From assembly GCA_965656495.1 (NCBI GenBank), contig CBFHKU010000001.1, positions 338,781 through 402,780 of the forward strand: a stretch of DNA of 64,000 nt, read 5' to 3'. Within the stretch, counting starts at the first letter, position 1; the number at the start of each line of letters is the position of its first letter. Below the pieces are notes generated by a model. The model worked only from the letters and a program-made list of their open reading frames with translations, was not told the origin of the DNA and ran no database searches. This document shows, piece after piece, positions 31,657 to 32,140 of the stretch. A program made the translations under genes and the position numbers. The stretch comes from Coraliomargaritaceae bacterium. GTDB taxonomy: Bacteria > Verrucomicrobiota > Verrucomicrobiia > Opitutales > Coraliomargaritaceae.

Positions 31657-31660
31657 TTTA

Positions 31661-31723
31661 TTAGAAGTTAGAAGTTAGAAGCTAGGAGTTGGAAGCTAGG
31701 AGTTGGAAGCTAGAAGTTGGAAG
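31661..31723. repeat. Nine tandem heptamers (YTRGRAG)
   Basis: TTAGAAG x3, CTAGGAG, TTGGAAG, CTAGGAG, TTGGAAG, CTAGAAG, TTGGAAG. Confidence 0.95.
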
Positions 31724-31730
31724 AAAAGAT

Positions 31731-32099
31731 TCAGGAAGACGCCAGCACTTTGCCGATATAGCGGTTGAGCATTTTGGCGATTTCGTTGAGTTGATTTTTG
31801 AGTGAGTCTGTCTCGCTGTAGCCGAGATCTTTAGTAAGCCGCAGGTAATAGAGGTATTCGTTAAGCGAGCCTTGAGCGATGTTGTAGAAGCGCGCCTTGT
31901 CAGCGGAACTACGCTTGCCGTAACCTTCCGCAATATTGGCAGGTATCGACACGCCCGCGCGACGTATTTGTGGGCGGAGTCCGAACTTTTCGCTTTCTGG
32001 GAAGGTTTTTGTCATTTCGTATATATGAAGAACAAACTTGTGAGCCTTTTGCCAAATTTGGAGATTTTCGAAGCTTGTGCAGTTTTCAGGTTTATCCAT
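31731..32099 (-). CDS. Four-helix-bundle protein (23S rRNA IVS protein / TIGR02436 family)
   Basis: SFENLQIWQKAH...YEMTKTFPESEKFGL..QIRRAGVSIPANIAEGYGK....KARFYNIAQGSL.E. Confidence 0.95.
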   Translation of the reverse strand: MDKPENCTSFENLQIWQKAHKFVLHIYEMTKTFPESEKFGLRPQIRRAGVSIPANIAEGYGKRSSADKARFYNIAQGSLNEYLYYLRLTKDLGYSETDSLKNQLNEIAKMLNRYIGKVLASS

Positions 32100-32105
32100 G
32101 GATTC

Positions 32106-32140
32106 ATTCTAACTTCTAACTCCTGTCTTCCAACTCCTAT
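32106..32140. repeat. Five tandem heptamers, inverted relative to 31661-31723
   Basis: ATTCTAA CTTCTAA CTCCTGT CTTCCAA CTCCTAT; abuts the gltB stop codon. Confidence 0.9.

What the first reader, a model, noticed from the sequence alone, without database searches (positions are those of the whole stretch)
31657..32140. Four-helix-bundle gene inside gltBD, framed by inverted heptamer arrays: a candidate repeat-bounded mobile or mRNA intervening cassette
Seen: between the gltB stop and the gltD start there are only five heptamers, a few spacer bases, the 122-aa gene and nine complementary heptamers. On the mRNA, purine-rich units (AUAGGAG UUGGAAG ACAGGAG UUAGAAG) precede the gene and pyrimidine-rich complements (CUUCCAA CUCCUAG CUUCUAA) follow, so a ~35-bp stem in several registers could loop out the gene and bring the gltB stop near the gltD start. 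The upstream array also contains GGAG. Established: this family was first found in excised 23S rRNA intervening sequences and is structurally related to the Avd protein of diversity-generating retroelements; gltB and gltD are normally adjacent. Inference: a minimal selfish or regulatory cassette that enters operons without polarity and whose protein may recognise its own repeats. The gene-less inverted arrays elsewhere in this window could be empty relatives.
Basis: partly seen in the sequence, partly recalled or inferred. Interest (0 to 1): 0.8.

Follow-up and report, generated by a model that had tools for sequence, protein, structure and literature searches.

The report
Swappable repeat-armed gene cassette in gltBD
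A small four-helix-bundle gene with mirror-image 7-base repeat arms sits between two glutamate-synthase genes, where close relatives carry the same package, a gene-less one or nothing; it is likely swapped between lineages as a unit, and its arms are likely binding sites for its own protein rather than an RNA stem.

Summary
In this family 17 of 88 genomes with gltD carry this gene clade, always at this junction. The others hold gene-less octamer arms, half arms or plain spacers. The gene is under purifying selection (dN/dS 0.10) yet discordant with its flanks. Of 19 genome pairs with flanks at least 92% alike, 11 have unrelated contents, against 0 of 19 at a control junction. The last ~21 nt of gltB tend to travel with the cassette. 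Two other junctions alternate between different four-helix-bundle clades, or a GxxExxY nuclease, each with its own repeat unit. The mRNA-stem idea is not supported: the arms show no G·U bias (86 vs 106 A·C; tRNA control 16:0), and RNA-library contigs cross both arms with no skip. The window's other arrays are REP mosaics, not empty copies. Best reading: an exchangeable junction cassette whose pentamer likely binds its arms as DNA motifs; binding and drive are untested. The scan noted the layout before (at least 113 genomes); my nine searches found no paper describing it outside rRNA.

The parts
32141..36790 (-). gltB, glutamate synthase large subunit (upstream neighbour)
32141..32161 (-). last 21 nt of gltB, which tend to travel with the cassette in relatives (inferred co-conversion tract); the conserved block just before it (about 32162-32182) is the inferred left crossover zone
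   Evidence: measured in relatives, pairs not independent
32106..32140 (-). upstream arm: five heptamers, purine-rich on the mRNA strand, consensus NN(A/G)G(A/G)AG, starting directly after the gltB stop
31731..32099 (-). four-helix-bundle gene, 122 aa, TIGR02436 / PF05635; model matches the Xcc0516 pentamer chain and Avd
31661..31723 (-). downstream arm: nine heptamers, reverse complement of the upstream unit, ending 4 nt before the gltD ATG; about 6-9 units among wild strains
30169..31656 (-). gltD, glutamate synthase small subunit (downstream neighbour); its conserved first ~21 nt are the inferred right crossover zone

Best explanation
This is a promoterless gene-plus-arms cassette at the gltB stop / gltD start junction that is present, empty or absent in close relatives and is likely exchanged between lineages in place by recombination through short conserved gene ends; its predicted pentameric protein likely recognises the heptamer arms as DNA motifs and would thereby help the package be taken up or kept. 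SHOWN: the anatomy; family membership and fold; patchy presence at one fixed junction; purifying selection with frequent decay; discordance between cassette and flanks; a repeat unit that follows the protein clade rather than the site; no G·U signature. INFERRED: horizontal replacement with crossovers within about 20-45 nt of the cassette edges (the host has ComEC and DprA); pentamer formation (from 2GSC); binding of about 4-5 units by five protomers on single-stranded or opened DNA, where either strand carries one purine-rich array at the 5' side of the gene; loss by deletion, which leaves the downstream arm as gltD's translation-start region; rare jumps to new junctions. UNTESTED: binding itself, any drive, and which enzyme cuts or joins. 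The protein has no catalytic motif. Host recombination, or a GxxExxY nuclease cassette acting in trans, are the candidates.
For: Site fidelity with patchiness: all 17 hits of at least 64% identity among 101 family genomes lie directly before gltD. 4 of the 16 fully read copies are broken. Median dN/dS 0.10 over 55 usable intact pairs. Discordance in both directions: G068/G071 cores identical with gltD dS 0.22; G074/G076 dS 0.19 vs 1.10; G068/G070 dS 0.84 vs 0.20. G070's gene groups (98/100) away from its gltD (100/99). A 160-nt gene-less cassette is 94-98% alike in G078, G079 and G087, whose flanks are 81-85% alike, while G078's near twin G081 (97%) is loaded. Control: 11 of 19 close pairs differ in content at gltBD, 0 of 19 at rplL-rpoB; junction much more alike than flanks in 8 of 276 vs 0 of 253 pairs. 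The last 21 nt of gltB follow the content: 2.9 differences in close pairs with different content vs 1.3 with the same content; 2.0 in distant pairs with the same content vs 3.2. The same cassette-flank combinations recur in separate assemblies (G074/G088, G087/G089, G068/G071). The unit follows the protein: the junction before the ubiB-like gene (label recalled) holds two clades about 35% alike, each with its own unit. leuB-alaS holds a four-helix-bundle or a GxxExxY cassette, each with its own arms. Arm 5-mer similarity rises with protein identity also between phyla, 0.05 to 0.22. Strand symmetry: G·U 86, A·C 106 in 79 stems vs tRNA 16:0 and terminators 7:3; sense more stable in 34, antisense in 42; unit-order shuffle p = 0.21. 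Intact arms mostly have 3-5 units. Fold: TM 0.84 to 2GSC (five chains), 0.76 to Avd 4DWL. A tandem GxxExxY array in this genome repeats about 40 nt of both neighbouring genes with each cassette.
Against: No binding or mobility assay. The protein is non-catalytic. No residue-to-base code emerged (top hits were driven by one outlier clade). Octamer arrays are abundant in genomes without a detected cognate gene: 9 of the 14 genomes with 5 or more matches (many are incomplete). The gene-less 160-nt cassette also spreads, and G078 and G079 lack a detected cognate gene. 60 of 67 relatives sit co-directionally inside operons, which points to a role of transcription. The solved Avd complex binds an RNA stem-loop, not DNA (10.1101/2023.10.23.563531, passages). 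In Coxiella the heptamers lie in an RNase III-cut stem (PMC4990558, passages). The whole gltBD locus also recombines between genera, genome pairs are not independent, and most genomes are metagenome assemblies. The unit-order test had only 16 loci. A screen of 111 loci for gene-end duplications found one convincing four-helix-bundle case (L002).
Confidence: 0.5

Rival explanations
1. Passive passenger in a recombination slot. Junction contents are swapped by ordinary transformation between conserved gene ends, or mobilised by GxxExxY nucleases. The four-helix-bundle protein gives an intermittent host benefit (for example in defence) and does nothing for its own spread.
For: Gene-less cassettes and unrelated cargo (HicAB-like pair in G029, label recalled; another ORF in G072) use the same junction. 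The whole locus recombines. ComEC and DprA are present. PF05635 genes are reported inside cas loci (PMC3936711, passage). Purifying selection fits a host benefit.
Against: It does not explain why each protein clade keeps its own inverted unit across sites and phyla. No PADLOC match. No phage copy among 50,697 records. Crossovers hug the cassette edges.
Confidence: 0.22
2. mRNA intervening sequence. The arms pair into a ~33-bp helix that is cut by RNase III, or that brings the gltB stop next to the gltD start, so the insertion is silent.
For: The helix can form in silico (z -2.92). The same family sits in RNase III-excised 23S IVSs whose stems contain heptamers (PMC4990558, passages). Relatives are co-directional and tightly packed.
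Against: No G·U excess, no sense-strand advantage, no position-specific complementarity. Within this junction's clade: 20 G·U vs 25 A·C. Contigs of RNA run X13 bridge both arms and show no skip; the skip in X19 belongs to a relative's empty allele. Cutting would separate gltB from gltD, whereas rRNA halves stay paired (established knowledge).
Confidence: 0.13
3. RNA-binding translational switch. The pentamer wraps the purine-rich upstream units on the mRNA, TRAP-like (recalled analogy), to repress its own translation. The downstream complement acts as a loose antisense decoy and as the start region of gltD.
For: Avd inserts flipped-out RNA bases between its five protomers (10.1101/2023.10.23.563531, passage). 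There are 3-5 upstream units. The downstream arm abuts the gltD start and is the half that survives decay. Heptamer arrays just upstream of starts are reported in Beggiatoaceae (PMC4679880, abstract and summary section).
Against: A decoy helix should still favour G·U over A·C. One paralogue clade has reversed arm polarity (L004, L133). It does not explain exchange at the junction or the spread of gene-less arms.
Confidence: 0.12
4. Ancient vertical insertion with repeated loss; the apparent swaps are chimeric assemblies.
For: Cassette and flank trees are broadly alike (Spearman 0.53; trees). One copy lies at the same junction in another family (G025). Most genomes are metagenome assemblies.
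Against: Discordance runs in both directions and recurs in separate assemblies. Near-identical flanks enclose unrelated contents. 14 changes of state on the flank tree.
Confidence: 0.05

Closest known systems
ORF-bearing intervening sequences of 23S rRNA (Coxiella burnetii IVS with S23p, PMC4990558; Leptospira by citation only)
   Same: Same protein family (PF05635/TIGR02436); about 450 nt; gene enclosed by inverted ends that contain tandem heptamers of variable number; sporadic, horizontally acquired, decaying ORFs; ORF-less and ORF-bearing forms at one site (10.1101/2024.02.27.582315, passages, for CPR rRNA insertions).
   Different: It sits at a stop-start junction of a protein operon; the window's 23S gene has no IVS (full-length model match). 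No sign of selection for an RNA helix and no evidence of excision. Contents are exchanged among unrelated cassettes at the same junction.
Avd of diversity-generating retroelements (PF22296, NF033474; PDB 4DWL, 8UB7)
   Same: Same fold (TM 0.76); pentameric nucleic-acid-binding barrel by homology.
   Different: Below both curated cut-offs (33.8 of 80 bits; 29.1 of 40). No neighbouring reverse transcriptase; the genome's single RT match is on another contig. No template/variable repeat pair in 31000-33000.
Homing endonuclease / intron homing cycle (established knowledge; PMC3943268 seen as a search listing only)
   Same: Fixed site, patchy presence, purifying selection with decay, discordant trees, short co-conversion of flanks.
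   Different: No nuclease domain in this cargo, no self-splicing RNA, intergenic site, and gene-less alleles spread as well.
Intergenic heptamer repeats (TAACTGA repeats, MacGregor 2015, PMC4679880; cyanobacterial STRRs, recalled)
   Same: Short heptamer arrays ending a few bases before start codons, patchy across phyla. [quoted passage not shown]
   Different: The paper names S1, Csp and Csr as candidates; 'helix bundle', 'intervening' and 'S23' have 0 occurrences. Here the arrays are paired arms around a gene. I did not test whether TAACTGA itself flanks such genes.
MITEs / insertion sequences and REP-RAYT (BIME) elements
   Same: Inverted ends and non-autonomous empty forms; arm units are also found inside REP mosaics in this genome.
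   Different: No transposase and no target-site duplication. It replaces an allele in place rather than multiplying: one copy of this clade per genome.

Membership tests
TIGR02436 / PF05635 four-helix-bundle proteins | HMM score above curated cut-off | tested here: met
   131.4 bits vs 24; 134.4 vs 33.8
TIGR02436 / PF05635 four-helix-bundle proteins | four-helix fold like Xcc0516 | tested here: met
   model pLDDT 92.6, four helices; Foldseek TM 0.84, rmsd 1.3 to 2GSC
TIGR02436 / PF05635 four-helix-bundle proteins | homopentamer | not tested
   inferred from the 2GSC and 2RLD entries with five chains; no complex job run
23S rRNA intervening sequence (IVS) | located in a helix of a 23S rRNA gene | tested here: not met
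   lies between gltB and gltD; the window's LSU gene matches model positions 1-2925 in 2896 nt
23S rRNA intervening sequence (IVS) | complementary termini able to form a long stem | tested here: met
   33 nt, 88% complementary; z -2.92
23S rRNA intervening sequence (IVS) | stem maintained as an RNA helix (G·U tolerated, covarying) | tested here: not met
   G·U 86 vs A·C 106; tRNA control 16:0; unit-order shuffle p 0.21
23S rRNA intervening sequence (IVS) | excision by RNase III without religation | tested here: inconclusive
   only assembled contigs were available; they bridge both arms but cannot show ends
DGR accessory protein Avd | Avd HMM cut-off | tested here: not met
   NF033474 33.8 vs 80; PF22296 29.1 vs 40
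DGR accessory protein Avd | adjacent RT with template and variable repeats | tested here: not met
   neighbours are gltB and gltD; the single RT is on contig C13
Homing endonuclease element | encoded site-specific nuclease | tested here: not met
   no nuclease family in Pfam, NCBIfam or fold search
Homing endonuclease element | fixed site, patchy presence, discordant tree, flank co-conversion | tested here: met
Homing endonuclease element | biased (super-Mendelian) transfer to empty alleles | not testable with these tools
   needs transfer experiments
Insertion sequence / MITE | transposase, target-site duplication, multiple dispersed copies | tested here: not met
   no transposase, no duplication at the junction versus empty alleles, one copy of the clade per genome
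Gut-1 or another Rfam motif | covariance-model match | tested here: not met
   no match at gathering score; only 3 chance matches with E 1.9-5.7
Anti-phage defence systems (PADLOC) | HMM match | tested here: not met
   0 families at E 0.1

The most novel reading that the evidence does not exclude
A widespread, undescribed class of minimal selfish elements competes for operon stop-start junctions. Each is one small gene (four-helix-bundle or GxxExxY nuclease) between inverted arrays of its own recognition word. It homes by replacing whatever occupies the junction, using only 20-45 nt of the flanking genes, with the Avd-like ring acting as the end-binding or annealing factor. 23S rRNA IVSs would be copies that landed in rRNA, DGR Avd a domesticated member, and the unexplained intergenic heptamer repeats of many bacteria the eroded arms.
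Probability: 0.3. Interest if true: 0.9.

Novelty: new variant of a known kind. Interest (0 to 1): 0.66.

Why it matters
PF05635/TIGR02436 is a very common family with solved structures and no function. This locus gives it a concrete candidate ligand (its own arm unit) and a natural specificity series: clades with 6-, 7-, 8- and 9-base units, some alternating at the same junction. It also makes two old questions testable with simple assays: how ORF-bearing 23S IVSs arise and spread, and what makes and binds intergenic heptamer arrays (MacGregor 2015 suggested an unidentified mobile binding protein). If exchange really needs only 20-45 nt of flank and no encoded enzyme, it is an unrecognised route of gene replacement inside core operons.

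Tried and rejected
(1) RNA-helix selection: G·U/A·C counts, sense vs antisense duplex energy and unit-order shuffles were all negative. (2) GGAG as a ribosome site: wrong distance, and the genome shows little SD use. (3) Spliced or skipped transcript: none from this allele. The X19 skip has 41 other letters and many substitutions (a relative's empty allele). The X3 joint 31682-32142 has a 20-nt side inside the repeat and was discounted. Other skips (X3, X4; X10) are in DNA runs with short sides and fit empty alleles of relatives. (4) Residue-to-base code: not found in 45 loci. (5) GNA-triloop DNA mini-hairpins as a general end signal: 2 in 206 flanks vs 5 in 379 control windows; rejected, although all 3 hairpins at gltB stops are of this type. 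(6) Gene-end duplications as a general footprint: one case in 111 loci. The 55-nt exact duplications (G006, L118) were treated as assembly overlaps. (7) Dependence of octamer arrays on the cognate gene: 9 of 11 genomes with the gene have arrays (own arms included) vs 15 of 90 without; inconclusive, with kin and incomplete genomes. (8) The second control interval ('JL') was mis-specified: it spans a whole gene, so it is not used. (9) Rfam, PADLOC and phage searches were blank. Plasmids hold 38 records below 60% identity, mostly cyanobacterial; their flanks were not examined. (10) The promoter scan gave one weak site, no more than shuffles. (11) Ralph and McClelland 1993 was not held, so Leptospira statements are second-hand. 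Rows dropped before counts: of 113 loci, 2 gave no hit; 7 broken or mis-framed, 1 duplicate and 3 with short flanks were left out, leaving 100. G077 was not fetched (gltD at a contig start), and 3 junctions lacked gltB on the contig.

Full report
OBSERVATION. The gap between the gltB stop (32141) and the gltD start (31656) is 484 nt. On the mRNA strand it reads: five heptamers, 6 bases, a 122-aa ORF (31731-32099), 7 bases, nine reverse-complement heptamers, 4 bases. The ORF is TIGR02436/PF05635, far above cut-off, and below the Avd cut-offs. Its model is a four-helix bundle matching the Xcc0516 pentamer chains (TM 0.84) and Avd (TM 0.76). The arms exceed chance. The cassette is AT-richer than its neighbours (GC 0.45 vs 0.57) and has no promoter- or terminator-like signal above shuffles. 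The titles of the closest relatives point to Verrucomicrobiota, class Opitutia, and the best-matching runs are marine. The downstream arm varies by whole units among wild strains (deletions of 7, 15 and 21 nt).

THE FAMILY-WIDE LAYOUT. The genome has four TIGR02436 genes, each with its own unit: this heptamer, an octamer, a hexamer with reversed polarity, and a degenerate heptamer. Of 100 usable relatives (GTDB scan plus order-level hits), 88 have an upstream/downstream complement better than all 10 of their shuffles, and 79 score 14 or more. Of 67 GTDB relatives with enough flank, 60 lie between co-directional genes, and 62 have 34 different downstream genes. So the clade reaches new junctions over long times but holds one junction within a taxon. 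Arm 5-mer similarity rises with protein identity (0.03 below 30% identity, 0.52 above 70%), also between phyla (0.05 to 0.22). At least four of the genome's five GxxExxY nuclease genes have the same layout with 9-10-base units.

THE JUNCTION IS A SLOT. Among 101 family genomes, 88 match gltD and 17 carry this clade (at least 64% identity). All 17 copies lie directly before gltD, and none lies elsewhere. Of 84 junctions read with both genes, a strict pattern finds 16 loaded, 16 with octamer arrays and no gene (9 with both arms, 7 with the downstream arm only), 2 with heptamer arrays only and 50 with none. By eye, several of the 50 hold decayed arms (G001, G005, G042, the G099 group). Four of the 16 loaded copies are broken, yet intact pairs give a median dN/dS of 0.10.

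Cassette and flanks disagree in both directions: identical cores with gltD dS 0.22; dS 0.19 vs 1.10; dS 0.84 vs 0.20. G070's gene and its gltD fall in different well-supported clades. A 160-nt gene-less cassette is 94-98% alike in three genomes whose flanks are 81-85% alike, and each has a close relative that is loaded instead. In one set of 24 genomes, 11 of 19 pairs with flanks at least 92% alike have unrelated contents, against 0 of 19 at the 163-nt rplL-rpoB spacer. The last 21 nt of gltB follow the content, not the gene, which puts crossovers in the conserved blocks just outside the cassette.

Two other junctions behave alike. The one before the ubiB-like gene (label recalled) holds either the octamer clade or a clade about 35% alike with another heptamer. 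leuB-alaS (labels recalled from the translations) holds a GxxExxY cassette in G000, G003 and G005, a four-helix-bundle cassette in G006 and G018, and remnants in G001 and G002. In G000 that junction has three tandem units, each with about 40 nt of both neighbouring genes. Caveats: pairs are not independent; the whole gltBD locus also moves between genera; most genomes are metagenome assemblies, although the discordant combinations recur in separate assemblies; and the trees agree broadly (Spearman 0.53).

THE ARMS DO NOT BEHAVE AS AN mRNA HELIX. In an alignment scored on Watson-Crick pairs only, mismatches are G·U 86, A·C 106 and other 278 over 79 loci, against 16:0 for tRNA acceptor stems and 7:3 for terminator-like hairpins. 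Sense duplexes are more stable in 34 loci and antisense in 42. Shuffling the unit order does not lower complementarity (16 loci, p = 0.21), and the variable central base varies alike in both arms. The arms are therefore two oppositely oriented arrays of one motif. Contigs from RNA run X13 bridge both arms and show no skip; they cannot prove transcription or show cleavage. The GGAG is unlikely to be a ribosome site. Against a purely DNA reading stand the strict co-orientation with operons (a promoterless gene needs this anyway), the RNA ligand of Avd (10.1101/2023.10.23.563531, passages) and the RNase III-cut stem of the Coxiella IVS, which contains heptamers (PMC4990558, passages).

THE OTHER ARRAYS IN THE WINDOW. 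The arrays at about 3.9-4.4, 20.4-20.8 and 61.9-62.4 kb are parts of mosaics (63 repeat clusters genome-wide) built from REP-like palindromes (175 matches; two Y1 transposase genes) and the units of the other paralogues and of a GxxExxY gene. This cassette's unit forms an array at only one other place. Their dependence on the cognate genes is inconclusive.

MECHANISM. Most likely (0.5): an exchangeable junction cassette. Its pentamer binds about 4-5 units of its own motif on DNA, where either single strand presents one purine-rich array. The package replaces the resident allele by recombination through 20-45 nt of conserved gene ends, using host functions (ComEC and DprA present) or a nuclease cassette in trans. 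Deletion returns it to empty or half-arm forms that keep the gltD start region. Exchange and decay are well supported by comparison; binding and any drive are inferred. Rivals: passive passenger 0.22, mRNA IVS 0.13, translational switch 0.12, vertical loss or chimeric assembly 0.05.

KNOWN VERSUS NEW. It works like a homing-cycle element and looks like an ORF-bearing IVS. It fails membership in IVS (not in rRNA, no helix signature), in DGR (no RT or repeats), in homing endonucleases and in IS/MITEs (no enzyme, no duplication). Nine literature searches found no description of repeat-armed four-helix-bundle or GxxExxY cassettes in operons. The library lacks most subscription papers, and supplements were not read. 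Papers seen: PMC4990558, PMC3936711, PMC10053308, PMC8700078, PMC4853749, 10.1101/2023.10.23.563531 and 10.1101/2024.02.27.582315 as passages; PMC4679880 as abstract, term search and summary section. The scan's own notes report the layout in at least 113 genomes, and one reports swapping. The controlled slot test, the short co-conversion tract, the sharing of one junction by two protein families and the negative G·U test were not returned by my two look-ups for them. Verdict: real, a new variant of a known kind, interest 0.66.

Noticed in passing
G000:C4:74800-75930 (L227): Three tandem GxxExxY cassettes (deleted, full, deleted) between leuB and alaS, each unit carrying about 40 nt of the leuB 3' end and of the alaS 5' end, joined by an identical short palindromic junction; suggests a defined transfer unit or circular intermediate.
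   Followed up: partly
window 3887-4355, 20420-20812, 61884-62407: REP/BIME-like mosaics that mix REP palindromes with the arm units of other four-helix-bundle paralogues and of a GxxExxY gene; 63 repeat clusters and two Y1 transposase genes in the genome.
   Followed up: partly
G000:C3:59600-60340 (L002): Four-helix-bundle cassette between a 213-nt and a 45-nt fragment of the 5' end of an rfbA-like gene (label recalled) whose intact copy lies 1.8 kb downstream.
   Followed up: partly
G000:C3:105000-105550 (L004); L133: Four-helix-bundle clade with reversed arm polarity: pyrimidine-rich hexamers upstream, purine-rich downstream.
   Followed up: no
L034 (G029) and L184 (G072): The same gltB-gltD junction holds a HicAB-like toxin-antitoxin pair (label recalled) in G029 and an unrelated ORF of about 200 aa in G072.
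   Followed up: no
L146, L151, L152 (G070, G068, G071): gltB-gltD of three genus-g9 genomes nests within genus g19, while their rplL-rpoB spacers look g9-like: whole-locus transfer between genera.
   Followed up: partly
L150 (G093) gltB-gltD junction: The downstream arm is split by about 150 nt holding other repeat types (TTTTGAA heptamers, a GxxExxY-like 10-mer): nested cassette remnants.
   Followed up: no
window 21891-27153: Complete rRNA operon with two tRNAs and no intervening sequence in 23S.
   Followed up: yes
window 4399-5108: VapC-family toxin gene (4671-5108) with a small upstream ORF, directly after a REP mosaic.
   Followed up: no
G000:C13:33267-33737 (L230): Single reverse-transcriptase-like ORF of about 480 aa, not next to any four-helix-bundle gene; class not determined.
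   Followed up: no
L057-L113 (18 Bacteroidota loci): One four-helix-bundle clade holds the junction before an acyl-CoA dehydrogenase-like gene (label recalled) across several genera; some arms have non-repetitive complementary inner segments.
   Followed up: no
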